Counted from the first letter of the stretch, positions 16,995 to 51,830 are shown. The stretch: DNA of 55,999 nt from an uncultured Gemmatimonadaceae bacterium (GCA_963822945.1 CAWGJO010000031.1:1-55999); one strand, 5' to 3'. The notes: a model not told the origin generated them from the sequence alone. Translations and numbers: made by a program.

Positions 16995-17947
16995 GGCCCG
17001 CGATCGAGGAGCGCATCAAGGCGCACGCCTACGCCCTCGGGTTCGACCTGGCGGGCATCGCGACGCTGGGGCCGGCCGAGACGTTCGATGCGTTCCAGCG
17101 TTGGCTCGACGCCGGGTACGACGGCGAGATGGCGTATCTGAAGCGCGGCGCCGGGAAGCGGAGTGATACGCGGCTGCCGGTGAGCGGCGCGCGGTCGGCA
17201 GTCGTGGTTGCGCTCGATTACGGTGGAAAGGCGCCCGACGGGCCGGTGGCGCGGTACGCCCGCGGCGACGACTACCACGACGTGATGATCGAGCGGCTGA
17301 ACGAACTGCACCGGCTGGTGGAGCGCGAGACGGGGCACGACGTGCCGGGCAAGGCGTACGTGGACACCGGTCCGATACTCGAACGCGACCTGGCGCGGAA
17401 GGCGGGGCTCGGCTGGTTCGGGAAGAACACGAACTTGATCAATCCCAAGCTCGGGTCGTACTTCTTTCTCGGGGAGCTGCTCCTGGATCTGGAGCTGGCG
17501 CCCGATGCGCCATTCGACACCGAGCATTGCGGGAGTTGCCGGGCGTGCCTGGATGCCTGTCCCACGCAGGCGTTCGTGGAGCCGGGGGTGCTCGATGCGA
17601 CCAGGTGCATCTCGTATCTGACCATCGAGTTGAAGGGCGAGATCCCGGCCGAGTTCCACGAGGCCATCGCAAGCGGCGGGCATCTATATGGATGCGATGT
17701 GTGTGAGGAGGTGTGCCCCTGGAACGTGAAGTTCGCGCGGGCGGTGCGGGAGCCGAGGTTCGAGGCGCGGAAAGCAATTGGCAGCAAAGCCGCGCCCAGA
17801 CTCGCCGCGGAGATTCTGGCGATGGATGACGAGGCGTTCCGCGCCGGCTTCAGAGGCTCGGCGATGAAGCGGGCCAAGCGGGCAGGTCTGGAACGGAACG
17901 CGCGGGCCGTGTTGCAGAACGTGCCGCCGTCGGCGCAAACGAAGTAG
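16991..17947 (+). CDS. queG: tRNA epoxyqueuosine(34) reductase
   Basis: ARYARGDDYH, YVDTGPILER, GWFGKN, CGSCRACLDACPT, CISYLTIE and GCDVCEEVCPWN. Confidence 0.95.
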   Translation: MRPAIEERIKAHAYALGFDLAGIATLGPAETFDAFQRWLDAGYDGEMAYLKRGAGKRSDTRLPVSGARSAVVVALDYGGKAPDGPVARYARGDDYHDVMIERLNELHRLVERETGHDVPGKAYVDTGPILERDLARKAGLGWFGKNTNLINPKLGSYFFLGELLLDLELAPDAPFDTEHCGSCRACLDACPTQAFVEPGVLDATRCISYLTIELKGEIPAEFHEAIASGGHLYGCDVCEEVCPWNVKFARAVREPRFEARKAIGSKAAPRLAAEILAMDDEAFRAGFRGSAMKRAKRAGLERNARAVLQNVPPSAQTK

Positions 17948-17998
17948 CGCTCGAGCACCGTACTTCCGCCGGATCGGCCGCCACACGATCATTGGCGC

Positions 17999-18694
17999 AT
18001 GCCCAAACGCACCATGCTGGTGATCGACGACGAGCCGCAGATCCGGCGGGTGGTGCGCAACGCGCTCGCCTCCGACGAATCGCGCGTCATCGACGCGGCC
18101 ACCGGCGCCCAGGGACTCGACCTGGCGGCCGCGGAGCAGCCGGACCTCATCGTGCTGGACCTCGGACTCCCCGACCTGTCCGGCGCCGACGTGTGCCGCT
18201 CCCTCCGGACCTGGACCAACGTGCCCATTCTGGTTCTCTCGGCGCGGCATTCCGACACCGAGAAGGCGATGCTCCTCGACGCCGGCGCCGACGACTACGT
18301 CACCAAGCCGTTCAGCACCGTCGAACTGCAGGCCCGCGTGCGCGCCCTCATTCGCCGACACGTGAGGAGCGAGTCGCCGGAGCGGGAGACCACGTTCTCG
18401 GCGGGCGACATCACCATCGACTACGTCGCGAGAACCGTGACCCTTCGCGGCCGCGAGGTGCACCTCACGCCAATCGAATGGGAACTGTTGCGCGTCCTCA
18501 CGAGCCATGCGAACCGGACGCTGACCCACCAACAACTCTTCGACGAGGTCTGGCACGGCCGGTCGTACGGCGATGCGCAGGCGTACCTGCGCGTGCACGT
18601 GGCGCACCTGCGGCGCAAGCTGGAGGCGGACGCCGTGCGACCCCGCCACATCCGGACCGAAGCGGGCGTGGGCTACCGGTTCGTGACGGACTGA
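17999..18694 (+). CDS. KdpE-like OmpR-family response regulator
   Basis: VIDDEPQIRR, LDLGLPD, GADDYVTKPF, LTPIE and GVGYRF. Confidence 0.9.
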   Translation: MPKRTMLVIDDEPQIRRVVRNALASDESRVIDAATGAQGLDLAAAEQPDLIVLDLGLPDLSGADVCRSLRTWTNVPILVLSARHSDTEKAMLLDAGADDYVTKPFSTVELQARVRALIRRHVRSESPERETTFSAGDITIDYVARTVTLRGREVHLTPIEWELLRVLTSHANRTLTHQQLFDEVWHGRSYGDAQAYLRVHVAHLRRKLEADAVRPRHIRTEAGVGYRFVTD

Positions 18695-18696
18695 CC

Positions 18697-19794
18697 GTGA
18701 CCCGCGTACCGTCGCGCCTCCTCCCACTCGCCGGTTGGACCGTCGCCCTTGCCGCGTGCGCGGCCGCCATGGTCGCGATCCGGCCGCGGCTCGGCAGCGC
18801 CCACGTGGCGCTGCTGCTCCTGGTGATCGTGCTCTTCGGGTCGGCCGCGCACGGCCGCACGGTCGGCCTCTGGCTGGCGACCCTCTCCTTTCTCGTCTTC
18901 GACGTCCTGTTCATTCCCCCGTACGGCACACTCGCCGTGCGCGATCCGTTCGATTGGATCGTACTCGTGGTGTTCCTGGCCACGAGCGTGGTCGCCGCTC
19001 AACTCCTGGCCCGGGCGCAGGCCCAGGCCCTGGCCGCGGAATCCCGCGCCGCGGAAGTCGACCGGCTGAGCGCGGAGCGCGTGCGGCTGATCGCCGAAGC
19101 CCAACATGCCGAAGCGCTCCGCGAAGCCGACCGCCTCAAGGACGCCCTGCTGGCCTCCGTCTCGCACGACCTCCGCACCCCGCTCACCACGATCAAGGCC
19201 CTTGCTCACGATCTCGGCCAGCTGGGAGACGAGCGGGCCGAGATCATCGAGCACGAGGCCGACCGGCTGAACCGCGTCGTCACCGACCTGCTGGAGCTGT
19301 CGCGGCTCAATGCCGGCGCGCTGGCGCTCCGCGTGGAGGTGAACGCGGTGGACGATCTGTTCGGCTCTCTGCTGCAACAGGTGGAGCCCGCCCTGCCGGA
19401 TCGTCATTTCGACGTGCGACTCCCAATCGACGATCCCGTGCTCGTGGGACGCTTCGATCTCGCGCACACGCTGCGGATCCTGGTGAATCTGGTGGAGAAC
19501 GCCGCGAAGTATTCGCCGCCGGACTCACCCATCGAGATTGCCGCGTCCCGCGATGGCGCGGCGCTGCGCCTCGACGTGTCCGATCGCGGCCCGGGCATCC
19601 CGGCCGCGGAGGCCGACCGGGTGTTCGAGCCGTTCTATCGCCCCACCGGATCGCCGCCGGACATCGGCGGCGCGGGGCTGGGCCTCTCCATCGCGCGGCG
19701 CCTTGCCGAAGCCCAACAGGGACGGCTCACGTACCGCCCGCGTCCCGGGGGCGGCAGCGTCTTCACTCTGTCACTGCCCGCCGCCCAACTGTAG
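18697..19794 (+). CDS. KdpD-like sensor histidine kinase (4-TM DUF4118 + HisKA + HATPase)
   Basis: Four TM helices with FIPPYGTL; SVSHDLRTPLT, NLVENAAKYS and GLGLSI. Confidence 0.85.
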   Translation: MTRVPSRLLPLAGWTVALAACAAAMVAIRPRLGSAHVALLLLVIVLFGSAAHGRTVGLWLATLSFLVFDVLFIPPYGTLAVRDPFDWIVLVVFLATSVVAAQLLARAQAQALAAESRAAEVDRLSAERVRLIAEAQHAEALREADRLKDALLASVSHDLRTPLTTIKALAHDLGQLGDERAEIIEHEADRLNRVVTDLLELSRLNAGALALRVEVNAVDDLFGSLLQQVEPALPDRHFDVRLPIDDPVLVGRFDLAHTLRILVNLVENAAKYSPPDSPIEIAASRDGAALRLDVSDRGPGIPAAEADRVFEPFYRPTGSPPDIGGAGLGLSIARRLAEAQQGRLTYRPRPGGGSVFTLSLPAAQL

Positions 19795-19868
19795 CGCGCG
19801 GCCCCGGCCAGCGCCTTGAGCCGTTGTGATTTCTTACCGCGGCCGGCACCGGCGTTCACGCGGTCTTC

Positions 19869-20324
19869 ATGCCCGCGGGCGTACCTTGCGCCCACGAGAC
19901 GCCCATGTCGACCACCACCGGTATCGCCCACGTTGATGCGTATCTCTGCGCACTCGAGCGTCTCTCGCCCGCCGACTGGCTGGTGATCGGGCGGGTGGAA
20001 GGGGCACTGAGCGGCACGGCGCCGGCGCTGGCAACGGCCGAGCTCCTCGCCGGCGCCATCGTCGTGGATCGGCGGCTGGAGGTCGTCCGGTGGCAGGCGG
20101 TGGACGCGGTGGACACCTGCGCGGCGCTCGCCGCTCCCGCGCGCGCGCCGAAACCCGGCCCGCTCCTTCCGCTCGCCAGGCACGCCGCGCGCCGCGCCGC
20201 CGTGGCGATGCTCGTGCGGGACTTCCTGCCGGACCGCGATTTCCGCCGGTTGTGCGCGTCCGTGTTCAGTGTGCTGGGGCCGTGTCCTCCAGCGCCACCG
20301 CGGCACCCCGCTCCTCGGGGCTGA
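19869..20324 (+). CDS. hypothetical protein
   Basis: Compact 151-aa ORF with plausible composition; start may be 19905. Confidence 0.5.
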   Translation: MPAGVPCAHETPMSTTTGIAHVDAYLCALERLSPADWLVIGRVEGALSGTAPALATAELLAGAIVVDRRLEVVRWQAVDAVDTCAALAAPARAPKPGPLLPLARHAARRAAVAMLVRDFLPDRDFRRLCASVFSVLGPCPPAPPRHPAPRG

Positions 20325-22221
20325 GGTCGTACTCCATCAGGTCGCGCAGGCGGTACGCATGGCCCAACAGATACGGCACTGCCACCACCACCACGTTGGG
20401 TTTGAACATGAAGGCGGTACGGATGTACAGCGCCGTCTTGTTGTGCAGAAAGTGCTCCCACCAGCGCTTGGGCACGATTTCCGGCACCACCACGGTCACC
20501 AGTTCTCCGGGCGAGAGCATGCGGAGCGCATCCACGTAGTCGACGATGGGCCGGATCACTGACCGATACGGCGAGGGCAGGACCACGAGTGGGACATCGA
20601 TGTCCCACTCCTTCCACCGCTGCTCGAGCCGCGCGGCGTGCTCGGGGTCGGTGCCGGCGCACACCGCCACCACCTCGTCGGAGATCGTCGTCGCGTATAC
20701 GAGCGCGCCGGCCACCGCCTTGGTGATGCCGTTCACGGGGACGACCACCGTATGATGCAGCGGCAGGATGGGACTCTGTCCCTCGAACCGGATGTCCCGG
20801 GCGAACTCGCCGTAATGCCGGTGAATCTTGACCAGCGTCAGGATGATCATGGGAATGATGACCACGATGATCCATCCGCCCTCCGTGAATTTCGTCACCA
20901 CCTGGACGATGGCCACCAGAGCGGTGGCCACCGCGCCCAGCCCATTGAGCGCCGCGCGGCGGCGCCACCCCGCGGTGCGCACCTGGCGCCAGTGCCGCAC
21001 CATCCCGCCCTGCGACAGCGTGAAGCACACGAAGACACCCATCGCATACAGGGGAATCAACCGGGAGGTGTCGCCGCGGAAGGCGATGACGAGCGCAATC
21101 GCCACACCGCCGAGCGCGAGGATCCCGTTGGAGAAGGCCAGCCGATCGCCGCGGGCCGCGAACTGCCGCGGCATGTAGCCGTCGCGGGCGAGGATGCTGG
21201 ACAGACGCGGGAAATCGGCGAAGGCGGTGTTGGCTGCCAGCACGAGCAGCGCGAACGTCGAATACTGCAGCAGGTAGTAGGCGATCGATGTCCCGAACAT
21301 GCGGTGGCCGAGCTGCGAGAGCACCGTCTGCGCCGCGGTGGGCATCACGCCGAAGTGATGCGCCAGGTACGACGTCCCGATGAAGAACGTCGCGAGGATG
21401 GTGACCATCCACATGAGCGTTGCCGCGGCATTGCGCGGCGCCGGCTGGCGGAACGCCTGCACCCCGTTGGAGATCGCCTCCGTTCCCGTGGCGGCGACGC
21501 ACCCTTCGGCGAAGCCCCGCAGCAGCAGGTAGGCAAAGGCGAACCCGGTGACGGGTTGCATGGCGTGCTGGCGGACGGACACCGGATCGACTTTGAGCGG
21601 GGCGGAAACGGGAGCGCCGACGTGTCCGAGCAGCGCGTGGACGAGGCCGGTGCCGAGCAACGCCAGCATCATGACGATGAACACATAGGTCGGGACGCTG
21701 AACGCGGCGCCCGACTCCCGCACTCCGCGGAGGTTCACGAGCGTGAGCACCACGACGGAGAGCACGCAGATGGCGACCGTATGCGGTTGCAGATCCGGGT
21801 ATGCGGAGGTGATCGCCGCCACGCCGCCGGAGATCGACACGGCGACCGTGAGGATGTAGTCGGTGAGCAGCGCGGCCGCCGCGACCAGGCCGGCCCCGAT
21901 GCCCAGATTCTCCCTGGCCACGGTGTACGACCCGCCGCCATTGGGGTACGCGAAGATCGTCTGGCGATACGAGAGGCCGATGAGCGCGATCAGGCCGACG
22001 ATGACGGCCGAGATCGGGACGACGTAGTTCAGCGCGGCGGCGCCCAGCGCGCCCCCGACTACGAACAGGAACTGGTCGGTAGCGTAGGCGACCGACGAGA
22101 TGGCGTCGGACGACAGGACGGCCAGCGCGGTCTTCTTGGTGAGCCGCTCATGCTCCAGGCGTTCGCTCGGGAGCGGGCGGCCGAACAGCAGCGTCTTGAA
22201 ACGGCGGTACGGCGTCGGCAT
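20266..22221 (-). CDS. APC-superfamily permease, KimA-like potassium transporter
   Basis: SSDAISSVAYA, YPNGGGSYTV, TGTEAISNGV, NTAFADFPRL and LHNKTA. Confidence 0.85.
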   Translation of the reverse strand: MPTPYRRFKTLLFGRPLPSERLEHERLTKKTALAVLSSDAISSVAYATDQFLFVVGGALGAAALNYVVPISAVIVGLIALIGLSYRQTIFAYPNGGGSYTVARENLGIGAGLVAAAALLTDYILTVAVSISGGVAAITSAYPDLQPHTVAICVLSVVVLTLVNLRGVRESGAAFSVPTYVFIVMMLALLGTGLVHALLGHVGAPVSAPLKVDPVSVRQHAMQPVTGFAFAYLLLRGFAEGCVAATGTEAISNGVQAFRQPAPRNAAATLMWMVTILATFFIGTSYLAHHFGVMPTAAQTVLSQLGHRMFGTSIAYYLLQYSTFALLVLAANTAFADFPRLSSILARDGYMPRQFAARGDRLAFSNGILALGGVAIALVIAFRGDTSRLIPLYAMGVFVCFTLSQGGMVRHWRQVRTAGWRRRAALNGLGAVATALVAIVQVVTKFTEGGWIIVVIIPMIILTLVKIHRHYGEFARDIRFEGQSPILPLHHTVVVPVNGITKAVAGALVYATTISDEVVAVCAGTDPEHAARLEQRWKEWDIDVPLVVLPSPYRSVIRPIVDYVDALRMLSPGELVTVVVPEIVPKRWWEHFLHNKTALYIRTAFMFKPNVVVVAVPYLLGHAYRLRDLMEYDLSPEERGAAVALEDTAPAH

Positions 22222-22352
22222 TCGGGAGGAGCATTCCGGCTCCCACGGGCAGAGGTCCGGCCCGCGTCATCGCGGGCACAACCTCTGGAAGCTGAGACGC
22301 ACCCGAAGCTGCCGCACAAACAACGTATGAAGATTTCGGGCCCCGCCCCTGG

Positions 22353-22586
22353 CTACTTCAGCCAGCCCTCCACCTTCGTCCGGCTCGGAACGCCGCCGGC
22401 GTGCACCACCTCGCCGTCGATCACCACGCCGGGCGTGGACATGACTCCGTATCCCATGATGTCCCGGATCTCCTCCACCTTCTCCAGCTCGATCTCGGCG
22501 CCGGTTTCCCTGGCGACGGTCTCGAGCAGACGGATCGTGTTCCGGCAATTCGGGCAGCCCGTCCCGAGCACTTTCACGTTCTTCAT
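22353..22586 (-). CDS. small redox-active disulfide (thioredoxin-like) protein
   Basis: KVLGTGCPNC..YGVMSTPGVVIDG. Confidence 0.88.
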   Translation of the reverse strand: MKNVKVLGTGCPNCRNTIRLLETVARETGAEIELEKVEEIRDIMGYGVMSTPGVVIDGEVVHAGGVPSRTKVEGWLK

Positions 22587-22606
22587 GACGATCTCCTCGG
22601 CGCCGC

Positions 22607-23662
22607 TCACAACACGGCGTTGAATACGTAGCCCACCAGCAGGATGCCGGCGGCGACCACCGCGACGAACGTCGCGATCAGTCGCACCTTCAGCACCTTG
22701 CGCAGGATCACCATCTCGGGAAACGACAGCGCGATCACGCTCATCATGAAGGCGAGCACGGTGCCCAGCGCGGCCCCCTTGCCGAGCAGTGCCTGCACGA
22801 TGGGAATCACACCCGCGGCGTTCGTGTACATCGGAACGCCGGCGAGCACTGCGGCCGGCACGGCCCACCACGTGTTCCGCCCCATGATCGACGCCATGAA
22901 CGTCTCGGGCACGTAGCCATGGATGGCGGCGCCGATGGCGATGCCGGCCAGGATGTACGGCCACACGCGTCCGACGATCTCGCGCACGGCGGCGAATCCC
23001 GCCTCGATGCGCGCCGCCGCATCCAGGCGGTCGTGTCCGGCGGCCGCCTGCACGCGCGGCATGTCGCGCACCCAGTCCTCGAGCGACGACTCCATATGGA
23101 GCCGTCCGATCACCCATCCCGCCACGATGGCGATGGACAGGCCGAGCCCGAGATAGAGCAGCGCGATCTTCCATCCGAACAGGGCGAACAGGAGCGCGAG
23201 CGCCACCTCGTTGACCATCGGCGCGGAGATCAGGAAGGAGAAGGTGACGCCGAGCGGCACGCCAGCCTGCACGAAGCCGATGAAGAGCGGTACTGCGGAG
23301 CACGAACAGAACGGCGTCACGATGCCGAGTCCAGCCGCCATGACGTTGGCGACACCTTCGGCGCGCCCCGCGAGCAGGGCGCGCGTGCGTTCCGGGGTGA
23401 AGTACGAGTTCACCATCCCCATCGCGAAGACGACACCGGTGAGGAGAAGCAGGACCTTCGGTGTGTCGAAGAAGAAGAACTGGAGCGCGCCGCCCAGGTG
23501 GCTCGTGGGGTCCACCGGCAGGGCGGCCACCAGGGCCCCCGAGGTCGGCTCCAGCGCCAGGTAGAGCGCCAGCCAGGCGAACGCCGCGGCGCTGAGGAAG
23601 ACCCGAGGATGTGCACCGGGCCAATCGGCGCGCCGGAGCGTTACATCGTCGGGGTGCAGCAT
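22607..23662 (-). CDS. ArsP/DUF318 family permease
   Basis: TPFCSCSAVP, FLISAPMVNE and GVPMY. Confidence 0.88.
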   Translation of the reverse strand: MLHPDDVTLRRADWPGAHPRVFLSAAAFAWLALYLALEPTSGALVAALPVDPTSHLGGALQFFFFDTPKVLLLLTGVVFAMGMVNSYFTPERTRALLAGRAEGVANVMAAGLGIVTPFCSCSAVPLFIGFVQAGVPLGVTFSFLISAPMVNEVALALLFALFGWKIALLYLGLGLSIAIVAGWVIGRLHMESSLEDWVRDMPRVQAAAGHDRLDAAARIEAGFAAVREIVGRVWPYILAGIAIGAAIHGYVPETFMASIMGRNTWWAVPAAVLAGVPMYTNAAGVIPIVQALLGKGAALGTVLAFMMSVIALSFPEMVILRKVLKVRLIATFVAVVAAGILLVGYVFNAVL

Positions 23663-44439: not shown

Positions 44440-44449
44440 CGTGGGCTCC

Positions 44450-44906: not shown

Positions 44907-45000
44907 CTAATCCTTGCCCGCAAGAAGGGCTCGCCCACCTGTGGTCAATGGAATTTCAATACGATTATACCGGCACACCTCCCAGGAGGCGCGCCCGTAG
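44907..45000 (+). repeat. att-like site 6 (core CA 44983)
   Basis: AATGGAATTTCAATACGATTATACCGGCACACCTCC-CA-GGAGGCGCGCCCG. Confidence 0.9.
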
Positions 45001-45138
45001 GAGCGGTCGCCGGTGTACCGATCAGCGTGGACCGGGGCGTCAAGACCGATGGGCGCTCGTAAGACGGGCGTCGCCTGCCAGGGAGAGAGCCTTGCCCGGC
45101 TCTCACCAATTGATGCGCGGCTGCACCGGACATCGCCC

Positions 45139-47766
45139 CTAGCTGGACCGCAAGATCTCCACCGGATCGCTGCGCATCGCGCGCAATGCCGGCACGAGCG
45201 CGGCCGCCATCGCCACCGCCATCAGCGTCGCCTCGGCGATCAGGAGCGAGCCGGGGTCCGTATTCTTCACCCCGAACAGTCGCCAGGAAATACCGGCACT
45301 TGCCCAGAAGCTCAACAGGGCGCCGATCGCGGTGCCGCCGAGCGCCATCTCGAACGCGCTGGTGAGGACGACGCGCACAATGTTGCGCCGTGTGGCCCCG
45401 AGCGCCTGCCGCACGGCGAACTCGCGCATGCGCTGCCCCACACTGTAGGACAGCACGCTGAACAGTCCGGTCACCCCCAGAATCAGCGCCGCGAAGGTGA
45501 GCACCGAGAGGAACTGCTCGAAGATCCGGTTGGCGCGAATCTCCTGGTTCTGGGCAAGGGTCCACGGCAAAGCCGATACCACGGCCGTTCGAGGGAGCAC
45601 GCCGCTCAATGCTCGTTCGATGGCAGTCGGAAGCATGGCGCCGGCATGGGGCGCCATGCGGGCAACGATATTCGTCATCCCCACCGTCTGCGCCGACGCC
45701 ACGTAGATCATCGGATTATCCGAGGGATCGAACGAGTCGGTCGCATTCATCGCCACGTCCGGGGCGATGCCCACCACGCGCAGCCACGGCCGTGACGCCC
45801 GCGCCCAGCCGAGCTTGATCATGTGGCCGATGGCGTTCTCGTGCGGGAAGAGCGCGTTGGCGGCCGTTCGCGAAAGCACGACCGCACCTTCTCCGAGAAT
45901 GTCGGCGTCGGACAAGTCGCGCCCTGCTGCCAATCGAATGCCCATGGTCTCGAAAAACCGGGCCCCGACGGTCTCGTAGTACCTCACGCGCAGCGACGGA
46001 ACCGTCGGTCGGCGATCGGTGAGCACCTCGCCGGCATCGGGAATGCCGTAGCCCATCGTCGTCACCGCGACCACGCCGGGCACCTCGCGGACCGCCTGCA
46101 CCGCCCGCGCCAACAGCGCCCGCCGCGCCACGTCGGACGTGTCCGCCGCCCCGTCTGCCGGGGTGATGTACACGTGCACGAGCGAGTGTGCGGCGAAGGC
46201 GTATCGGTAATCCGCCAAGTTCCGCGTGGAGAGCGCCATCAGACTCGTGAGCATGAGCAGCACCATCGCGACCGCCAGCTCCGTGATCACGAGGAGGCGG
46301 AACTCGTTCCGGCTGCGGCCGGTGGTCGTGCCGGCGTTGTCCTTGAGCGGATCCGCCGGGTCCACCCGACTGGCTCGCCAGGCCGGGACGCCGCCCGCGA
46401 CGCCCATGCCGCCCAGCAGCGCCAAGCCCACCCCAGTGAAGACCCAGGGCGAGAATCCGAACACGTAGTCTCCCCAGGTTGCCAGGTCTTCCGGCACCAG
46501 GTGTGTGAGCACGCCAATCACCGCATTCGCGATCAGTAGCCCCAGGACCGCCCCACCAACGCCGATCACCAGGACCTCGGCGAGCACGTCGGCCGCGATC
46601 CCGGCGCGCGTGGCGCCGAGCGCAATGCGCAGCGCGTACTCGCGCCGCCGGGTCAAGCCGCGCGCCAACGCGAGCGCCGTCACGTTCGTGCAGCCGATGA
46701 GCAGCATCCCCAAGGCAAGCGCCAGCATCAGAATTCCCTGGACGTCTTGCCGCAGGTCCATTGCTTGCGGCGCCAGCGGAATCAGCAGGATGCCGTACGG
46801 CGTCGTGATCGTGAGCGGCGAGACATACTGCGCCTGGTAGCGTGCGGCGAGTGTGGCGACCTGCGCGTGCGCGGCCGCGGTGTCCACGTTCGCTCGGAGC
46901 TCCACGACGATGTCACCCTGCCGCAGCCGCTCCACCGCCCCCGGTGACGCATAGGGGATCACGACGGGAGCCGACAGTGGGCCCGCATGACCCGGCGGCA
47001 CCACGCCCACGATAGAGTACACGTGGCCGCCGACGCTCAGCGTCGCGCCGTCGATCGCGGAGCGGTCGGCGAACGACTCTGTCCACAGGGCGGACGACAC
47101 GAGTGCCGCGCGATCGGCGGCGATCTCCTGCGGGGTTGGATATCGGCCGAGCGTCAGCGGCACGCCGAGGGCGGGAAACAGGTTGGCGCTCACGTGTGCC
47201 ACCGTCCACTCCGCGGCGGCGCCCCCAATCGTCGTCAGTTCCTGGGCGTACGATTCCACGCCCACCGTCTGTACCGCCGGCAGTGTCGCGAGGCCCCGCA
47301 TCTGCTCGGCGATGCTCGGCCCGCTCGTCCGGTTGCCGAACCGGAGCTTCGCGACGTCCCACCGATCCGGATGTCGGAACAGGGCCTTCGGGTGAAGCGA
47401 GGAATCGATCAAGGCGAAGGTCGCCGTCGCGAGCCCGAGTGCCACGCCGAGCGAGAGTACCGACACCACGACGAAGCCGGGCGACCGTCGCAGCGTGCGC
47501 CACGCGCGCTTCACAGCCTGCGCGAACTGCTCAAACCACCGCACGCCGCGCGCGTCCCGAGACGCCTCCTTCATCTCCTCTACGCCGCCGAATGCCAGCC
47601 GTGCCTGGCGGCGGGCTTCGTCGGGTTCCGCCCCGTGAACGCCGAGCTTCTCCGCCTCACGATCGAGATGGAACTGGAGTTCCTCGGCGAGATCCCGCTC
47701 CAGATCCTCGCGGCGGAACAGTGCGCGGAGCCGGTAGCGCAGGTCGCTCAGTAGATCACGGAGCAT
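45139..47766 (-). CDS. ADOP-type duplicated ABC permease
   Basis: LAEELQFHLDRE, ARLAFGG, LIGCTNV, QRMREFAVRQALGA and DPVEILRSS. Confidence 0.9.
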   Translation of the reverse strand: MLRDLLSDLRYRLRALFRREDLERDLAEELQFHLDREAEKLGVHGAEPDEARRQARLAFGGVEEMKEASRDARGVRWFEQFAQAVKRAWRTLRRSPGFVVVSVLSLGVALGLATATFALIDSSLHPKALFRHPDRWDVAKLRFGNRTSGPSIAEQMRGLATLPAVQTVGVESYAQELTTIGGAAAEWTVAHVSANLFPALGVPLTLGRYPTPQEIAADRAALVSSALWTESFADRSAIDGATLSVGGHVYSIVGVVPPGHAGPLSAPVVIPYASPGAVERLRQGDIVVELRANVDTAAAHAQVATLAARYQAQYVSPLTITTPYGILLIPLAPQAMDLRQDVQGILMLALALGMLLIGCTNVTALALARGLTRRREYALRIALGATRAGIAADVLAEVLVIGVGGAVLGLLIANAVIGVLTHLVPEDLATWGDYVFGFSPWVFTGVGLALLGGMGVAGGVPAWRASRVDPADPLKDNAGTTTGRSRNEFRLLVITELAVAMVLLMLTSLMALSTRNLADYRYAFAAHSLVHVYITPADGAADTSDVARRALLARAVQAVREVPGVVAVTTMGYGIPDAGEVLTDRRPTVPSLRVRYYETVGARFFETMGIRLAAGRDLSDADILGEGAVVLSRTAANALFPHENAIGHMIKLGWARASRPWLRVVGIAPDVAMNATDSFDPSDNPMIYVASAQTVGMTNIVARMAPHAGAMLPTAIERALSGVLPRTAVVSALPWTLAQNQEIRANRIFEQFLSVLTFAALILGVTGLFSVLSYSVGQRMREFAVRQALGATRRNIVRVVLTSAFEMALGGTAIGALLSFWASAGISWRLFGVKNTDPGSLLIAEATLMAVAMAAALVPALRAMRSDPVEILRSS

Positions 47767-47779
47767 GGATCGGCCGGCT

Positions 47780-48112
47780 TCAGGTGGTCCGCAGGACGAG
47801 GGCGACTGCGGCCGCCAACCGTTCCCAGTCGCCGGTTTCGGCGGCCAACTGCGCGTGCCCTCGTCGGGTCAACTCATAGAACTTGGCCCGCCGGTTGTTG
47901 TCCGACGTGCCCCACGTCGCTTTCACCCAGCCACGGCGCTCGAGGCGGTGTAACGCAGGGTAGAGTGAGCCCTGCGGCACGTCGAGCACCTCGCGCGAGA
48001 TTTGGCGAATGCGCTCCGAGATCCCCCACCCGTGCTGGGGGGCGAGTGAGAGCGCCTTGAGGATCAGCAGGTCGAGCGTGCCCTGCGGGAGATCGAGACG
48101 GTCCGGCGGCAT
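47780..48112 (-). CDS. PadR family regulator
   Basis: LPQGTLDLLILKAL, GSLYPALHRLE and NNRRAKFY. Confidence 0.92.
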   Translation of the reverse strand: MPPDRLDLPQGTLDLLILKALSLAPQHGWGISERIRQISREVLDVPQGSLYPALHRLERRGWVKATWGTSDNNRRAKFYELTRRGHAQLAAETGDWERLAAAVALVLRTT

Positions 48113-48119
48113 GAGTTCC

Positions 48120-48168
48120 CCTGTGACTTCTACAGGACGATACGGCGCGTCCTGTAGAAGTGCAAGGG
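48120..48168. promoter_or_regulatory. padR operator with a perfect 14-bp inverted repeat
   Basis: ACTTCTACAGGACG-ATACGGCG-CGTCCTGTAGAAGT at 48126-48161. Confidence 0.7.
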
Positions 48169-48253
48169 AAATCGGGCGGTGCCATGCTGCCGGAGGCGAC
48201 AGAGACGGCAGCTTCCCGATTTCCGCCAAGCTGTCGTCCGTCGGGGACGACGC

Positions 48254-48354
48254 TTATCTCGTTGCCTTGGCACGAGTTCGCCCGCCCGTCTCCAATGGAA
48301 TCGCAATACAGTTTTGTCGGCACATCTCCCAGGAGGTGTGCCCTGAAGACTGCA
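48254..48354 (+). repeat. att-like site 7 (core CA 48330), an extended imperfect palindrome
   Basis: TACAGTTTTGTCGGCACATCTCC-CA-GGAGGTGTGCCCTGAAGACTGCA. Confidence 0.92.
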
Positions 48355-48483
48355 CTCTCCTGGGTCACGGAACTGAGCGGGGATGACGCGGAAGATTGGA
48401 GTCGGGGCTCGATCTCACTGCCTTCCGCGCATCCATCCGGTCCGACTTTCGGGGGGACCCGCCGGAGTGGGCTACCGTCAGCA

Positions 48484-48702
48484 CTACTGCTGGAGTTGCG
48501 CGGCAAACAGGTAGAACAACCGCACTCCTATAATCAGCACAGCGGCGCCGAGCACTCTCATGCCCCATGGAGGCAGTCGAGTCCATGGCGCCTGCGTGCG
48601 ACGCAGAGCCGCCCGCGGCCTGACCAGCATCAACACGCCGGAGGCCACCCACGCGAGACCGCAGATCAAGAAGAGCGCCGCTGTCGCCACGTTAGTCGCC
48701 AT
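48484..48702 (-). CDS. small 2-TM hypothetical protein
   Basis: 72 aa with two hydrophobic segments. Confidence 0.45.
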   Translation of the reverse strand: MATNVATAALFLICGLAWVASGVLMLVRPRAALRRTQAPWTRLPPWGMRVLGAAVLIIGVRLFYLFAAQLQQ

Positions 48703-48753
48703 GCGGATAGCCTGACGGCTGCTTCGCGCGATTACCGTCCCGACGCGCGGCCA

Positions 48754-49134
48754 TCAGAGTGGAGGCGGTTCCGCAGCCTGAAGTCGCGCCGCCCGCCGGC
48801 GATCTCGAAACACCGGGGTCAATGCGAGCCATACGAGTACGCCAAGGGATACGTGGCGTGCATTCGCCCCGATGTCCGCGTCCGCGAGGACCGCCTGGTG
48901 CATCGTCATCACTCCGCTCTCGTACTCCGTCGCCGCGCGGTCCCCGAATCGCACGACCCGGTCCGACGCTGGCGTCGACAGCGCAACCCGTACAGCTCCG
49001 TAGTACCCGGGTTGCGCAAAGAACAGCGTGACCAGCGACGCTCCTATTGCCAGGCCGCGCAGAATCTTCCGCCGGTAACGCCATTCGGCGACCAGCAACG
49101 CGACGAGGATCATGGCGATCAACGCTGTCGTCAT
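48754..49134 (-). CDS. hypothetical membrane protein
   Basis: 126 aa with three hydrophobic segments; AAGGAGG upstream. Confidence 0.5.
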   Translation of the reverse strand: MTTALIAMILVALLVAEWRYRRKILRGLAIGASLVTLFFAQPGYYGAVRVALSTPASDRVVRFGDRAATEYESGVMTMHQAVLADADIGANARHVSLGVLVWLALTPVFRDRRRAARLQAAEPPPL

Positions 49135-49410
49135 TCGACAAGCCTCCTTGGCGCTCGGATAGGATCAGAAGGAAGAGTCAGCGGAAACGTCACCGCGTGC
49201 GGGTCACGGGTATGGGCCCCCGCCGCTCTTTCCGCCCGCGCACGCGGTGACTGAGGCTGCGGAGGCCACGCGGACATTGCTCGCGAATCCGGCCACCGTC
49301 GTGCACCTGCCCGTCCGCTATGAAGCGGGGCTGACCGGCCGCACCGTCTGACGACATCTCAACGCGCTCGCCAGCTCGAAGATTGGGCGCAGCCTAACTT
49401 CGCTCCGCCG

Positions 49411-49641
49411 TCACCGCTTCTTCGGCACGACCAATGGAGGAGCCGACTGGTCTTTGGGCATGCAGACTTTGCGCCAATCTTCACCGGGCTTGAGCGGCTC
49501 GCAGAGCTCGGCGTGCAACGCGCTGTCGCTGAAGACAGACCGCGGCGCTTCCGCCAATGGCGCCGCCGCGGAAGCGGGGCGCTGGCTTTGACAGGCAAGG
49601 GCGCCAGCAAGGCAGACGGCCCCGATCAAGAGAGAGCGCAT
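49411..49641 (-). CDS. small hypothetical lipoprotein
   Basis: MRSLLIGAVCLAGALAC lipobox; two further Cys. Confidence 0.5.
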   Translation of the reverse strand: MRSLLIGAVCLAGALACQSQRPASAAAPLAEAPRSVFSDSALHAELCEPLKPGEDWRKVCMPKDQSAPPLVVPKKR

Positions 49642-49880
49642 GATTCAGAACGTACGTCCCTTCGCCCGCGTAGGTCAACAGGCGGTGGCGCAGGGCGGGC
49701 TGAGTGCAGCGGCACTCCCAACTCCGCCAGCAGCGCCTCTGTGGAGTCAACGCCCAGCGCACGCTTCGGCTGCCGATCGGTGGCTAAACGGGACTATGGC
49801 CAATCGCTATTCCCGGAAATCCAAGACACCCCCATTCCCAGACGCCGCCACCGTATACCAACTGGTGCCGGGCGGCGGCC

Positions 49881-49970
49881 CTAACTCTTTGCGGGATTGA
49901 GCGTTCGGCCGCCGGTTCCCAGCGGAATCTCGATACAGTTATACCGGCACACCTCCCAGGACGTGTGGCG
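49881..49970 (+). repeat. att-like site 8 (core CA 49957)
   Basis: AGCGGAATCTCGATACAGTTATACCGGCACACCTCC-CA-GGACGTGTGGC. Confidence 0.9.
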
Positions 49971-50274
49971 ACATATTCAGAGTCGTCCCGACAACCGGCC
50001 GACAGATCCCCTTACGTCGTCACCAACTTCCGATACGTCACCAGGCGCGGCTGATCAGCACCCGGCTCCTTTCGCGTCTTCAAATCTTACATATACGAAC
50101 TGTACTCCGCTCCAACACGGCTCTGGACCGTCCAGCAGCGGGCACGCCGGGTCGCATCCGGCCGGTGGCTACCATGCTCCCGCACACTCCTCCCGCAATG
50201 TCCGCATGGGATCCGTACTTGTGGCCCGGCGTGCCGGTGATACTCGGTCCACTTGACCGGGCCCTTGGGCTTGG

Positions 50275-50635
50275 GGTGAGTAGGCCGGGGCATTGCAGCC
50301 CCAGCCGCTCGCAGAACCGGACGTGAGCCTGTCGACTCATCCGGCTCCCATCATCGAGCTGCAGGGTGGAATCCCTTTTCTCAATGCGCGAACGCCGTCG
50401 GCATGCGATCCGCAACTCGGCCAAGCGCCCGCGCTCCGCGAATGATCCCGCGCGCCAGCCGCCTGCACTTTCGCTGCATCCAGCGCACACATAGTCGTTC
50501 ACGTGTCGCCACAACGGTTGTATCGCGGACGGGTAGAACCGACCGTCGTCGTTCGACTAGCCCCGCAGCACCGGGTCGAACATGCTCGAGAGACCGCTCG
50601 GTGCGATTCACCCGACGCAAACAGTCGTCATTTAA
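50275..50635 (-). mobile_element. 5'-truncated group II intron remnant (decayed maturase domain X + DV + DVI)
   Basis: Broken frame MFDPVLRG*SNDDGRFYPSAIQPLWRHVNDY / VRWMQRK..RVADRMPTAFAH; DV GAGCCGGATGAGTCGACAGGCTCACGTCCGGTTC; ends CCTACTCACC. Confidence 0.85.
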
Positions 50636-50651
50636 TGCGGGGCGCCTCAGC

Positions 50652-51131
50652 TCAAAGATACGGCAGAAAGGAGAGGATGCCGATCCCAATACATGCTAAC
50701 CCGAGTAGGAATACTACCATCGAGCTCCCGGCCGGGCCGGCCTCGAGGACGCTAACGCCTGGGTCTCTTGGAGAAATATGCACCACCACTTCCTGATCGA
50801 GCGGATAGCGCGACGTCTGACTCCAAGCCCACGATAGGCCTCCCAGGCCGGCGCCCCCCATCCGGAACCTTGATCCAGTATACTCTTTGCCGTTGACCGA
50901 ATACCGGTATTGCACAACCGGAATGAATTCTGTCTTCTTGGTCGGAAGGATCCCCATGCTTGATACTTGGATCGGCCTCCTGCGCGCGCCTACGATGCGG
51001 CCTCTAACCGTCGGCCATTGTGCGCACCGAATTCCGCGGACGACGTTCACAACGCCTAGTATCGCCAACGCGACTCCGCCGAGCACCATCGTTCCCCCAG
51101 AAATGACGTCCGTCGCAGCGTGTGAAGTCAT
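50652..51131 (-). CDS. DUF3592 family membrane protein
   Basis: TM helix, WPTVRGRI, PVVQYRYSVNGKEY, VVVHISPRDP, TM helix. Confidence 0.75.
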   Translation of the reverse strand: MTSHAATDVISGGTMVLGGVALAILGVVNVVRGIRCAQWPTVRGRIVGARRRPIQVSSMGILPTKKTEFIPVVQYRYSVNGKEYTGSRFRMGGAGLGGLSWAWSQTSRYPLDQEVVVHISPRDPGVSVLEAGPAGSSMVVFLLGLACIGIGILSFLPYL

Positions 51132-51594
51132 ACGGCGGCCTGCCTCCTCGGATGGCGACGCGGCGCCTGAAGGCGTTCCGTTTCACCAGGTCGCGTGGCG
51201 GCAATCGATTGCCTCTGCGGTCGCTTCACCGCAAGGCTGGCCTTGGTCGCGCGATGCGCCGCAGACTCCTGATGGGAGACACCAAATCCGGTCCCTCCGG
51301 CGGCGGTACTTCGTCCCGACCGCACAGTCACTCGCCAATCTCCATAGTCTATGCTTCGAGGATGAGGGCCGCCGGTGTTCGTTGGTCTAACGCTATAGTA
51401 TCGATCCCCGCGCAGATCTATCAAGTACCTGAACTCGTGCTGCTGTGAGCCCCGTTTCGTGAATCAGATGCGACTAAGCTGTTCTGGGCGTGGGTCCCCG
51501 CGGATCGGTCCAGCCGGGTGCACGCTTTGACGGGAACTGAGCTGACCCCGGCGTATCCCCACTGCGGAAGCAAGGCCCCCGAACTGCTCCGGCG

Positions 51595-51692
51595 CTAGCT
51601 CCCTCTCTTGACGAGGGTTCGTCCACCCGTCCCCAACGGAATCGCAGTACAGTTTTGTCGGCACACCTCCCAGGAGGTGTGCCGGTAGACTG
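51595..51692 (+). repeat. att-like site 9 (core CA 51671), perfect 12-bp arms
   Basis: CGGCACACCTCC-CA-GGAGGTGTGCCG. Confidence 0.92.
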
Positions 51693-51830
51693 TGAAGCCC
51701 GTACGGCGGCCGCCGGTGTCCCTCGCGAAGAGCGCAGTTGAATTCCCCGCGTTGTTCATTGGCTCGGGAATCAAGCGCGCGCGGCTGCCCGGGCTCTCGG
51801 GGGGCACTCAGGTCATACTCGGCAACCTCA
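51671..51830 (+). pseudogene. queG: decayed, internally deleted queG 3' end
   Basis: QEVCR*TVKPVR..LAKSAVEFPALFIGSGIKRARLPGLSGGTQVILGN. Confidence 0.75.

What the first reader, a model, noticed from the sequence alone, without database searches (positions are those of the whole stretch)
17705..51830. queG-anchored tandem cassette array punctuated by a palindromic att-like repeat
Seen: a site of about 60-75 bp, consensus GTTCGCCCGCCCGTCYCCARYGGAATCKCAATACAGTTTTGTCGGCACACCTCC|CA|GGAGGTGTGCC, recurs in direct orientation with cores at 24155, 26288, 33308, 41684, 44983, 48330, 49957 and 51671, plus a right-arm-only copy at 38339. The right arm is the Q-E-V-C-P-W-N codons of the last Fe-S motif of queG (native position 17705). 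Intervals from the native site are 6450, 2133, 7020, 5031, 3345, 3299, 3347, 1627 and 1714 bp. The two-armed sites are intergenic and bracket whole gene modules in either orientation. Known: inverted arms around an asymmetric central dinucleotide are typical of serine-integrase att sites, and islands that enter a gene often carry a replacement 3' end. Inference: nine or more small integrase-less circles integrated serially at queG, each restoring the gene and pushing the old tail downstream. This gives an integron-like gene-capture array without attC sites. I do not know of a description of such a system at queG.
Basis: partly seen in the sequence, partly recalled or inferred. Interest (0 to 1): 0.93.

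Follow-up and report, generated by a model that had tools for sequence, protein, structure and literature searches.

The report
Serine-recombinase cassette stack at queG
Behind the tRNA-modification gene queG, this soil bacterium of the family Gemmatimonadaceae has piled up many small blocks of accessory genes, each ending in the docking site of a mobile-element enzyme that sits at this same spot in related genera; this is a known way for genomic islands to accumulate, seen here at a new gene and in a little-studied phylum.

Summary
The repeat is real and confined to one locus. It has a conserved left arm of about 54-75 nt, a CA core and the queG codons (Q)EVCP. It lies at 24155 (degenerate), 26288, 33308, 41684, 44983, 48330, 49957 and 51671, and otherwise only on contigs C19, C37, C7 and C8. 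Those contigs continue the same array, about 90-100 kb with at least 15 two-armed sites.

Each site is an attR-type junction: the outer arm of one element, the crossover, then a displaced queG 3' end. The missing enzyme turned up in other genera of the family. A large serine recombinase gene lies directly after queG, convergent, at all 10 loci inspected. The four elements whose far end I found are about 19, 23, 27 and 35 kb and are followed by recombinase-less cassettes.

The recombinase reading frame crosses the crossover point, and the "left arm" encodes its last ~25 residues, so attP lies inside the gene.

This genome has no such recombinase (88% complete), and its queG core reads GA, not CA. 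Relatives carry different sets and orders of the same cassettes.

The closest known systems are Dehalococcoides ssrA islands, SCC composite islands and CIME accretion. This scan found the queG array before in other genomes, without an enzyme.

The parts
16991..17947 (+). queG (epoxyqueuosine reductase), the only full-length copy in the genome and the anchor of the array
   Evidence: Pfam QueG_DUF1730 and Fer4_16. tblastn finds one full copy plus tails only.
17694..17717 (+). Native site (attL-type) inside queG. The core position 17705-17706 reads GA instead of CA.
   Evidence: CAG is the usual codon in relatives. It is GAG in G000, G198 and G341, and GGG in G279 and G401.
17705..24155 (.). Cassette 1. 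It contains the queG tail in use (to 17947), a response regulator and histidine kinase, an amino-acid permease, and Trx, ArsP permease and ArsR.
   Evidence: Pfam. The same block lies in G279 at 96-98% identity and ends at the site. The Trx-ArsP-ArsR part is a separate site-bounded cassette in G255.
24107..24262 (+). Site 2: degenerate P arm, CA at 24155, displaced queG tail of the CPWNVKF type
24155..26288 (.). Cassette 2: a 314-aa protein without a Pfam match and a cytochrome b-like protein, both on the minus strand
26220..26497 (+). Site 3: P arm, CA at 26288, displaced queG tail (67% identical in protein to residues 239-308)
26288..33308 (.). Cassette 3: DMP19-like, DUF4272, and PadR plus a MacB/FtsX-type permease (ADOP-like, name recalled)
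   Evidence: The PadR-permease part is 84% identical to the G002 cassette. An 89% copy of 24145-33306 forms the whole of contig C8.
33230..33517 (+). Site 4: P arm, CA at 33308, queG tail of the CPFNRKF type. This is the tail type found next to the recombinase in other genera.
34104..35234 (+). IS110-family transposase inside the cassette that begins with the recombinase-type tail. It lies where a recombinase gene would be expected.
   Evidence: Pfam DEDD_Tnp_IS110 and Transposase_20. tblastn finds no recombinase remnant.
38337..41684 (.). Cassette with only the right arm left at its head (38339): PadR plus a permease split over two frames (38957-40633 and 40275-41603)
   Evidence: 38337-38896 is 87% identical to 51669-52230. 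Pfam. The same cassette is the first one after queG in G198 and G341.
41609..41706 (+). Site: P arm, CA at 41684, about 35 nt of degenerate tail
41684..44983 (.). Cassette: permease (41722-44439) and PadR (44450-44788), both on the minus strand
44904..45003 (+). Site: P arm, CA at 44983
44983..48330 (.). Cassette: permease (45139-47766) and PadR (47780-48112), both on the minus strand
48253..48347 (+). Site: P arm, CA at 48330. In soil-metagenome contigs the P arm has other neighbours on both sides, and the homology breaks at 48274-48276 and at 48330.
   Evidence: table 7
48258..48344 (-). Example of the minus-strand coding stretch in a P arm: ..GHTSWEMCRQNCIAIPLETGGRTRAKATR*. It is in phase with the recombinase reading frame of relatives.
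48330..49957 (.). Cassette of 1627 bp with no Pfam match
49879..49975 (+). Site: P arm, CA at 49957
49957..51671 (.). Cassette: a match to the Rfam group II intron model (50275-50349, minus strand; no reverse-transcriptase ORF found) and a DUF3592 protein (50652-51131, minus strand)
51593..51694 (+). Site: P arm, CA at 51671, tail variant GGAGGTGTGCCGGTAGA with an in-frame stop
51671..52164 (.). Start of a further PadR cassette, cut off by the fold-back
   Evidence: (D3)
52164..55999 (.). Reverse-complement copy of 48329-52164 (94.5% identical, with indels). It is probably an assembly fold-back and not part of the biology.
   Evidence: No contig of four runs was laid on 52346-55999, while the mirror half was covered.

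Best explanation
The region is a tandem array of mobile-element remains accreted at one attachment site inside the 3' part of queG. The responsible enzyme is a queG-specific family of large serine recombinases (LSR).

Steps of the mechanism:
1. An element circularises. Its attP is the P arm, then CA, then a spare queG tail (P').
2. It recombines with attB, the codons C-Q-E-V-C-P of queG, at the CA dinucleotide.
3. queG is rebuilt with the element's tail. The old tail, now behind the element's P arm, is pushed downstream.
4. Repetition stacks the units. The newest lies next to queG.

The LSR gene lies at the queG end of the element, convergent with queG. Its reading frame runs antisense through the spare tail and across the crossover. 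The P arm therefore supplies its last ~25 codons, and integration swaps the enzyme's C-terminus.

In this genome all units lack the recombinase, like cis-mobilizable elements or pseudo-SCC. No LSR gene is in the assembly, and the queG core has changed from CA to GA. The array is therefore probably static now, unless an enzyme arrives from outside.

Shown:
- the anatomy of the sites;
- their restriction to one locus;
- the position and frame of the LSR in relatives;
- the coding pattern of the arm;
- the differences in cassette content among relatives.

Inferred:
- that this LSR catalyses the events;
- that CA is the crossover;
- that the small units move as units;
- that the GA core blocks recombination.
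For: 1. Site anatomy and chance. The core matches 10 times against 0 expected, and the left arm 5 times against 0. queG tails follow the cores.

2. One locus only. A profile of the site hits only C31, C19, C37, C8 and C7. C19 1-6548 equals C37 75002-81532. The genus members G373 and G078 have queG followed by the flank that lies at C37 at or below 41-42.6 kb. Everything between is therefore inserted.

3. The enzyme.
- PF00239 is absent from G000.
- A relative of the G061 LSR is found in 15 of 401 family genomes and in 6 of 401 genomes of a phylum sample.
- At 10 of 10 inspected loci with a full queG it lies directly after queG on the opposite strand.
- It carries Resolvase and Recombinase domains and an invariant R-K-S...Q motif.
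- The four elements whose far end I found, about 19, 23, 27 and 35 kb, run from the queG core to a P arm-CA-tail site. Recombinase-less cassettes follow them, with six more sites in G132.

4. attP inside the gene.
- All 10 LSR reading frames and 43 of 45 database homologues run without a stop to the core.
- In the same phase the P arm reads ..WEVCRQNCIAIPLxTGxRT.. A stop falls at codon 29 in 13 of 23 sites.
- Variation is codon-periodic: Gly uses all four GGN codons, and Leu uses TTG, CTC, CTT and CTG.
- This frame has the highest share of synonymous differences, 0.29. The plus-strand queG-phase frame has 0.21 and the other four frames 0.08-0.12.
- In G350 an internal LSR 3' remnant reads through its tail and core into the neighbour's arm in one open frame.

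5. Core. CA is present at nearly all of 50 internal sites from 17 genomes.

6. Turnover. The same cassettes occur in a different order in relatives. Metagenome contigs break homology at the arm's outer edge and at the core.
Against: - No LSR gene or remnant is in G000, nor in the 15 other genomes of its genus that were searched. Activity here is therefore unproven. The assembly is only 88% complete.
- The link between LSR and site rests on position and anatomy, not on an assay.
- The plus-strand queG-phase frame of the arm also looks partly coding (synonymous share 0.21), because the third codon positions of the two frames coincide. The coding claim therefore rests on a margin, on the stop codon and on one read-through remnant.
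- Openness of the antisense frame through the tail is partly explained by the tail having few Tyr codons. Nine of the 11 Tyr sites counted there are, by my own reading, one conserved position.
- Most displaced tails behind cassettes are of the CPWNVKF type, not the CP[YF]N[HR]KF type that accompanies the LSR. A simple series of LSR-element insertions does not predict this.
- One insertion in G279 (3.2 kb) lies in the 3' part of the tail and not at the core.
- The order of C31, C7, C8 and C19 is not established.
Confidence: 0.8

Rival explanations
1. Decay only. Every small unit is the wreck of a once recombinase-bearing island of 19-35 kb that lost its interior by deletion. The small units were never mobile by themselves, and differences in order arise from homologous recombination between the repeated sites and tails.
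For: - LSR 3' remnants lie next to tails in G190, G164 and G350.
- Tails of the recombinase type occur at 33308 and at C37 66128 with no recombinase behind them.
- An IS110 transposase sits where the recombinase should be.
- The repeated units offer 100-300 bp of homology.
- One cassette appears twice in G255.
Against: - No cassette of G000 holds an LSR remnant.
- Many units are compact and complete, a regulator plus a permease, with the sites close against the genes.
- The same units keep both boundaries in several genomes while their position in the array changes.
- The arms keep an open, conserved coding frame.
Confidence: 0.3
2. Array growth without any site-specific enzyme. Segmental duplication and homologous recombination among copies of the queG 3' end, with uptake of foreign DNA by flanking homology, built the array.
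For: The tails are 61-81% identical over 90-194 nt. Contig C8 is an 89% copy of two cassettes. The G279 insertion is flanked by a roughly 29-nt duplication away from the core.
Against: - This does not explain a conserved non-queG arm ending exactly at CA at about 50 sites in 17 genomes.
- It does not explain the dyad symmetry around CA.
- It does not explain the recombinase that sits at this junction at 10 of 10 loci.
Confidence: 0.06
3. An integron or integron-like system. The repeats are attC-type sites served by a tyrosine integrase next to the array.
For: The layout resembles an integron: an ordered row of cassettes, each ending in a conserved site, with the anchor at one end. An IS110-family element and a group II intron match lie in the array. 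By recall, subgroups of both are known from integron attC sites.
Against: - Only two PF00589 matches exist in the genome, on C24 and C6, and none on the array contigs.
- The breakpoint is at CA, about 54 nt from the only GTT-like motif.
- As single strands the sites fold only into the short perfect hairpin, not into a whole-site imperfect hairpin.
- Cassettes are 1.6-8 kb and carry their own regulators.
Confidence: 0.02
4. A dispersed palindromic repeat (REP or MITE) that happens to be common in this region.
For: The core is a perfect 11-2-11 palindrome.
Against: There are no copies outside the five array contigs in 3.97 Mb. The repeat is always in one orientation relative to queG and is always followed by queG-derived sequence.
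Confidence: 0.01

Closest known systems
Dehalococcoides ssrA-specific genomic islands (McMurdie et al. 2011, PMC3146451; passages read)
   Same: - Multiple tandem islands lie within about 100 kb downstream of one single-copy gene.
- Each island is bounded by a direct repeat of the gene's 3' end.
- A serine recombinase of the CcrB kind lies on the reverse strand next to attL.
- A conserved motif lies just upstream of each repeat.
- 15 islands lack an integration module and are read as cis-mobilizable elements.
   Different: - The target there is the tmRNA gene, with a 20-bp repeat. Here it is an internal point of a protein gene, with a spare coding tail of 72-145 codons.
- That integration module has six genes, including a second small recombinase. 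Here I found no conserved neighbour of the LSR.
- Here the recombinase frame crosses attP.
- The phylum differs.
Staphylococcal cassette chromosome (SCC/SCCmec) composite islands and pseudo-SCC elements (recalled; mentioned in PMC3146451)
   Same: Large serine recombinases insert elements into the 3' end of a housekeeping gene and keep it intact. Recombinase-less elements bounded by the same repeats stack in tandem.
   Different: - The target there is rlmH (orfX), with short 15-18-bp repeats.
- The Ccr enzymes are a different LSR lineage, often working as a pair.
- No long replacement tail is carried.
- The recombinase gene is not reported to span the site.
CIME accretion at the fda gene by ICESt1/ICESt3 of Streptococcus thermophilus (definition read in PMC5704250; primary papers not seen)
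   Same: The three-step scheme is the same: integration, decay to an element that keeps attL and attR but has no recombinase, then integration of a new element beside it. The tandem can be mobilised in cis.
   Different: Those elements use tyrosine integrases and are conjugative. They form two or three units, not fifteen or more. No conjugation genes were looked for or seen here.
Integrons
   Same: An ordered row of gene cassettes is added at one anchor site, newest next to the anchor, and cassette content and order vary between strains.
   Different: There is no IntI, no attC and no common promoter. The cassettes are larger and self-regulated, and the enzyme is a serine recombinase carried by a mobile element, not a fixed chromosomal platform.
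Integrase genes that contain their own attP
   Same: Integration changes or splits the recombinase gene, because the crossover lies inside its coding sequence.
   Different: Those are tyrosine integrases. Here the enzyme is a serine recombinase, and the detached 3' coding piece persists on every cassette.

Membership tests
Large-serine-recombinase integrative element | Recombinase with an N-terminal resolvase catalytic domain (nucleophile Ser) plus a recombinase domain, encoded by the element | tested here: met
   Met in relatives. PF00239 and PF07508 are found on the G061 and G039 proteins and on P0025, and R27-K28-S29...Q36 is invariant in 14 sequences. Not met in G000 itself: no PF00239 match and no tblastn match.
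Large-serine-recombinase integrative element | att sites with partial dyad symmetry around a non-palindromic central dinucleotide | tested here: met
   The internal sites are an 11-2-11 palindrome around CA. CA is present at nearly all of 50 internal sites. In queG attB the left half matches the mirrored right half at 7 of 11 positions (read).
Large-serine-recombinase integrative element | The element is bounded by hybrid sites attL and attR, with the recombinase inside | tested here: met
   Four elements are delimited, in G220, G061, G039 and G132.
Large-serine-recombinase integrative element | The enzyme recombines attP with attB | not testable with these tools
   This needs an assay.
Cis-mobilizable elements / tandem accretion | Units keep both att sites but have no recombinase or transfer genes | tested here: met
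   No recombinase appears among the Pfam results for the array's ORFs other than IS transposases. The sites are intact.
Cis-mobilizable elements / tandem accretion | Units derive from autonomous elements by decay | tested here: inconclusive
   LSR 3' remnants occur in G190, G164 and G350, but none in G000. Two G000 tails of the recombinase type hint at decay.
Cis-mobilizable elements / tandem accretion | Units are mobilised together with a neighbouring autonomous element | not testable with these tools
   G132 has an LSR element in front of six further sites. This is an opportunity for mobilisation, not proof.
SCC / SCCmec | Integration at the 3' end of rlmH (orfX) by Ccr recombinases | tested here: not met
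   The target is queG. The enzyme shares only the general LSR domains.
Integron | An IntI tyrosine integrase gene beside the array | tested here: not met
   PF00589 matches lie only on C24 and C6.
Integron | attC sites: imperfect inverted repeats (RYYYAAC...GTTRRRY) that fold over their whole length, with the crossover in the GTT | tested here: not met
   The breakpoint is at CA. Folding gives only the short central hairpin. RNAalifold finds no structure in the outer arm.
REP / MITE | Many copies dispersed over the genome | tested here: not met
   copies lie on the five array contigs only.

The most novel reading that the evidence does not exclude
The queG recombinase is built so that its own attP splits its gene, and the full-length enzyme, ending in the conserved peptide ..EVCRQNCIAIPLxTGxRT.., exists only on a circle. 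After integration it ends at or just past the crossover. Of 45 database homologues, 18 end exactly at the core and 15 within 10 residues of it.

This state-dependent C-terminus could be a built-in directionality switch that replaces a separate excision factor.

Every recombinase-less cassette keeps a spare, still coding copy of that peptide. Any circle that joins the recombinase gene to any cassette arm therefore rebuilds a complete enzyme. The array would then work as a serine-recombinase counterpart of an integron, in which cassettes are selected to stay compatible with the enzyme at the coding level.

The CA-to-GA or CA-to-GG change at the queG core in the clade of this genome would be a host-side lock.
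Probability: 0.25. Interest if true: 0.75.

Novelty: new member of a known kind. Interest (0 to 1): 0.5.

Why it matters
This gives the recombinase-less queG cassette arrays of Gemmatimonadaceae a concrete enzyme and mechanism. This scan had reported those arrays several times without finding an enzyme.

It adds a protein-coding target, queG, and a soil phylum to the short list of serine-recombinase island hot spots. It also shows one of the longest such stacks, about 90-100 kb.

The cargo is adaptive: many PadR-plus-permease pairs, arsenic-related genes, transporters and kinases. The array may therefore be one route by which the large permease families of these soil bacteria spread.

A recombinase with a fixed, conserved target inside a gene, and with a possible self-contained directionality switch, would interest people who develop integrases as tools. 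The source of protein P0004 names a cultured species as its organism, so the prediction can be tested at the bench.

Tried and rejected
- Rfam at gathering thresholds gave only two group II intron matches and no family for the repeat. ARAGORN found no tRNA.
- I looked for a hairpin with covarying stems at the outer end of the arm. RNAalifold predicted no pairs in 18 sequences.
- Single-strand folding of whole sites gave only the central palindrome. Two of six folds were better than shuffles, for that reason alone.
One of its three search patterns lay in the part of the frame that is antisense to queG, so 73 of the 78 loci showed no LSR-body match and matched only the part of the query that is antisense to queG. 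Only 5 held LSR sequence and only 1 held a site, and no circular or internal full-length LSR was found.
- P0025 ends in a peptide that may be a diverged arm (6 of 16 residues), but I could not fetch its contig.
- I searched for a conserved neighbour gene of the LSR, such as an excision factor. Ten ORFs upstream of the G061 LSR were compared with the other LSR loci held at that point (G039, G107, G098, G073, G220, G132, G230, G164, G190 and the G350 piece L019). Nothing was conserved beyond the LSR leader.
- Sequencing runs: only Logan contigs of soil metagenomes held the stretch, with at most 0.21 of its words. Laid on 46000-55999, they gave short low-depth pieces. They neither bridge nor contradict the fold-back centre. 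The lack of cover on 52346-55999 is noted only as a weak hint.
- tblastn of the LSR against G000 at E up to 10 gave nothing credible. The 412-codon open frame at C37 64951-66189 is a shadow frame, not a recombinase.
- An XerC/D-type or IS110-based mechanism was considered. The core is unlike a dif site (recalled), and the single IS110 cannot account for sites in genomes that lack it. I did not pursue this.

Full report
**Observation**

The window is the whole of contig C31 of a 3.97-Mb, 45-contig assembly. The assembly is 88% complete and has 68% G+C.

The palindromic core GGCACACCTCC-CA-GGAGGTGTGCC matches 10 times at up to 3 mismatches, against 0 in 100 shuffles. The longer left arm matches 5 times, against 0.

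Long copies of the queG 3' end (90-194 nt, 61-81% identical) follow the cores at 24155, 26288 and 33308. The other cores keep only 11-35 nt of queG-like sequence.

There are three corrections:
- The native site reads C-E-E-V-C. Its dinucleotide is GA where the repeats have CA.
- The site at 24155 has a degenerate arm.
- The last 3.8 kb of the contig is a reverse-complement copy of 48329-52164 (94.5% identical with indels). The copies at 52683 and 54391 are mirror images, most likely from an assembly fold-back. Contigs from four soil runs were laid on the first half but never on 52346-55999, which is a weak hint in the same direction.

**One locus, larger than the window**

Exact and near-exact searches, and an nhmmer profile built from 20 sites, find the motif only on C31, C19, C37, C8 and C7.
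- C19 1-6548 equals C37 75002-81532 at 99.3%, so these two contigs are contiguous.
- The reverse complement of C19 begins with a queG tail followed by the PRiA4_ORF3 gene. This matches the first cassette after queG in the congener G002.
- C7 is a single PadR-plus-permease unit with a site at each end.
- C8 is an 89% copy of 24145-33306, running from site to site. It is either a second copy or a second strain.
- In the congeners G373 and G078, which have no sites in 20 kb downstream, queG is followed within 2-6 kb by DNA that in G000 lies on C37 at or below 41-42.6 kb. Everything between is therefore insertion.

The insertion adds up to 34.5 kb on C31, 27.6 kb on C19 and 28.1 kb on C37, plus C7. 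That is about 90-100 kb, with 15 strong two-armed sites and at least five partial ones. The order of the contigs is inferred, not shown.

There is only one full-length queG in the genome.

**Cargo**

The cargo comprises:
- a two-component system and an amino-acid permease;
- Trx, ArsP and ArsR;
- a cytochrome b-like protein;
- DMP19 and DUF4272 proteins;
- about ten PadR-plus-MacB/FtsX-permease modules ('ADOP' is a recalled name);
- Ser/Thr kinases, ABC transporters and NhaA;
- an ECF sigma factor and an amidohydrolase;
- IS110 and IS3 transposases.

No site-specific recombinase is present.

**Finding the enzyme**

G000 has no resolvase-domain match. It has only two tyrosine-recombinase matches, both on other contigs.

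A pattern scan found the site in 6 of 150 other genomes of the family, with one or two copies each. In every one of these loci the site is followed by a queG tail. None of the six 2.5-20 kb loci held a recombinase.

A genome-wide search in five of those genomes found resolvase-domain genes on the same contig as the sites in G061 and G039. After fetching the gaps, both turned out to lie immediately downstream of queG, on the opposite strand.

With the G061 protein as query:
- 15 of 401 family genomes have a relative at E <= 1e-20, in 11 of 77 genera, with none in 15 other genomes of G000's own genus;
- 6 of 401 genomes of a phylum-wide sample have one, in two families.

At all 10 loci with a full queG that I inspected, the gene is convergent with queG and abuts it. 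These loci are G061, G039, G107, G098, G073, G220, G132, G230, and the truncated copies in G164 and G190.

The protein has Resolvase and Recombinase domains and an invariant R-K-S...Q motif. Database relatives are named by their sources as Gemmatimonadetes or Gemmatimonadaceae, and one as Gemmatirosa kalamazoonensis.

Four elements could be delimited, from the queG core to the first P arm-CA-tail site. They are about 19 kb (G220), 23 kb (G061), 27 kb (G039) and 35 kb (G132). Each is the unit nearest queG and is followed by small recombinase-less cassettes, with six further sites in G132.

G350, a one-contig genome, has six sites over about 60 kb and three recombinase 3' remnants lying next to tails.

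**The left arm is coding**

The G061 recombinase frame does not stop before queG. It runs antisense through the replacement tail and across the core. The same holds for all 10 loci and for 43 of 45 database homologues. The other two are truncated records. Of the 45, 18 end exactly at the core and 15 within ten residues of it.

Read in the same phase, the arms of 20 sites from eight genomes give a conserved peptide..GHTSW-EVCRQNCIAIPLxTGxRT... A stop falls at codon 29 in 13 of 23 sites.

Several measures point to coding on this strand:
- Column entropy over 18 codons sums to 16.7, 14.7 and 23.0 for codon positions 1, 2 and 3. The conserved Gly uses all four GGN codons, and the Leu uses TTG, CTC, CTT and CTG.
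- Among the six frames, this one has the highest share of synonymous codon differences, 0.29. The plus-strand queG-phase frame, which shares third positions with it, has 0.21. It carries an internal stop in one copy and lacks the boundary stop in several. The other four frames have 0.08-0.12.
- In several array contexts a stop lies 2-8 codons upstream of the core and no start codon is available. The peptide is therefore not an independent gene there.
- In G350 an internal recombinase remnant reads in one open frame from the recombinase body through its tail and YGHTSW into the neighbouring arm (..EMCRQNRFRIDLSTGRITL..*).
- In recombinase-type tails the antisense frame has 0 stops in 1401 codons, against 58 in 2300 codons of the queG body.
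- Tyr codons there are never preceded by a C- or T-ending codon (0 of 11, against 50 of 93 in the body). By my reading, however, nine of those eleven are one conserved position, so this is weak support.

I conclude that attP lies inside the recombinase gene and that integration exchanges its last ~25 residues. This is inferred from sequence and is not shown at the protein level.

**Core and tails**

CA stands at the dyad centre of nearly all of 50 internal sites from 17 genomes. The real exceptions are two G000 sites, with CC and CG.

Most queG genes have CAG at this place. G000, G198 and G341 have GAG, and G279 and G401 have GGG. This is the sub-clade with queG most like G000's, apart from G401. 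For serine recombinases a mismatch in the central dinucleotide blocks the reaction (recalled). The queG end of the array is therefore probably locked in this clade.

The tails in use fall into two classes. All 10 next to a recombinase read CP[YF]N[HR]KF. All 13 without one read CPWNVKF.

Most displaced tails behind small cassettes are of the second class. A few are of the first: 33308, C37 66128, G279 10898 and G350 9587, the last of which is followed by a recombinase remnant. A third, recurrent variant (GGAGGTGTGCCGGTAGA..) has an in-frame stop. A simple series of recombinase-element insertions does not predict the predominance of CPWNVKF tails. I leave this unexplained.

**Turnover among relatives**

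In the genus, 8 of 11 genomes examined have sites downstream of queG. They carry between one and four or more cassettes in the stretch available.

Whole units recur at different positions:
- The PadR-permease cassette of 38.5-41.6 kb is first after queG in G198 and G341.
- The PRiA4-Fic cassette is first in G002, second (partial) and fourth in G255, and third in G228.
- Trx-ArsP-ArsR is a separate site-bounded cassette in G255 but part of cassette 1 here.

G279, the closest relative, shares cassette 1 up to the site at 24155. It then has entirely different cassettes. It also has a 3.2-kb insertion in the 3' part of the tail, flanked by a roughly 29-nt duplication, so this insertion is not at the core.

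Soil-metagenome contigs break homology with the window at 48274-48276, the outer edge of the arm, and at 48330, the core. At the core, one continuation reads as another queG tail.

**What is known**

Three full-text searches found no paper on queG as an integration target: queG + serine recombinase; epoxyqueuosine reductase + attB; and queG + genomic island + integrase.

The principle, however, is described.
- McMurdie et al. 2011 (PMC3146451; passages read) report tandem islands within 100 kb downstream of ssrA in Dehalococcoides. Each is bounded by a repeat of the gene's 3' end. A CcrB-like serine recombinase lies on the reverse strand next to attL. Fifteen islands lack an integration module and are read as cis-mobilizable elements.
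- A review (PMC5704250; passages read) defines CIMEs and the integration-decay-accretion scheme.
- SCC composite islands are the other close parallel (recalled, and mentioned).

I therefore file this as a new member of that kind, with a new target and a new phylum. The recombinase gene spanning its own attP is the unusual trait.

**Earlier notes of this scan**

Notes e1-5187348, e1-3884307 and e1-4962189 describe queG cassette arrays in other Gemmatimonadaceae genomes and state that no recombinase was found. One of them is marked 'part of it fell'. My work agrees on the anatomy. It adds the enzyme, the coding nature of the arm and the evidence of decay. Note e1-1321324 reports cut-off recombinase 3' ends on cassettes in another phylum. 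That resembles the arm peptide here, but I did not test it.

**Verdict**

The claim of independent integrase-less circles is unproven, the system is not without precedent, and this particular array is probably inactive.

Noticed in passing
window 48329-55999: The end of the contig is a self-inverted repeat (94.5% identity, with indels, centre about 52164). It is probably a fold-back assembly artefact. It duplicates two sites, a group II intron match and a PadR start in mirror image.
   Followed up: partly
window 50275-50349 (-) and its mirror 54015-54089 (+): The Rfam group II intron model (RF00029, 53.6 and 44.4 bits) matches inside a 1.7-kb cassette. No reverse-transcriptase ORF was found nearby. 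Metagenome contigs have loose ends at 50308 and at 50347-50355.
   Followed up: no
window 34104-35234: An IS110-family transposase follows the only recombinase-type queG tail in the window (33308). It lies where a recombinase gene would be expected. The boundaries of the IS were not determined.
   Followed up: no
window 38957-41603: The PadR-linked MacB/FtsX permease is split over two overlapping frames (38957-40633 and 40275-41603). This is a frameshifted gene or a sequencing error.
   Followed up: no
window 30201-33191, 38554-41603, 41722-44788, 45139-48112; C7; C19 12862-18740 and 23404-26365; C37 60003-62941: PadR regulator plus duplicated MacB/FtsX permease pairs are the commonest cargo, with about ten modules in the array. 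Cassette traffic at queG may help to spread this expanded permease family.
   Followed up: partly
window 51671-51694; C37 81269, 59831 and 53431; L043 17243 (G279); L046 about 5900 (G341): A recurrent tail variant, GGAGGTGTGCCGGTAGAA.., reads QEVCR-stop. A cassette carrying it would truncate queG if it were the first in the row. Its origin is unexplained.
   Followed up: partly
L043 1844-5065 (G279): The closest relative has a 3.2-kb insertion in the 3' part of the queG tail, flanked by a roughly 29-nt duplication (GGCCTGGAACGGAACGCGCG..). It is not at the CA core, so a second kind of insertion event occurs at this gene.
   Followed up: partly
contig C8 (L042) against window 24145-33306: A whole 9.4-kb contig is an 89% copy of two adjacent cassettes, running from site to site. 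It is either a diverged duplicate in the array or a second strain in the assembly.
   Followed up: no
window 17705-17706; L022-L034: The queG core codon is CAG in most genomes. It is GAG in G000, G198 and G341, and GGG in G279 and G401. This is a clade-specific change of the presumed crossover dinucleotide.
   Followed up: partly
L009, L008, L012-L018, L020 against L021-L032: queG next to the recombinase runs 138-145 codons from the core to its stop, against 72-103 codons elsewhere. The element's spare tail therefore lengthens QueG by about 40-70 residues, and these overlap the recombinase frame in antisense.
   Followed up: partly
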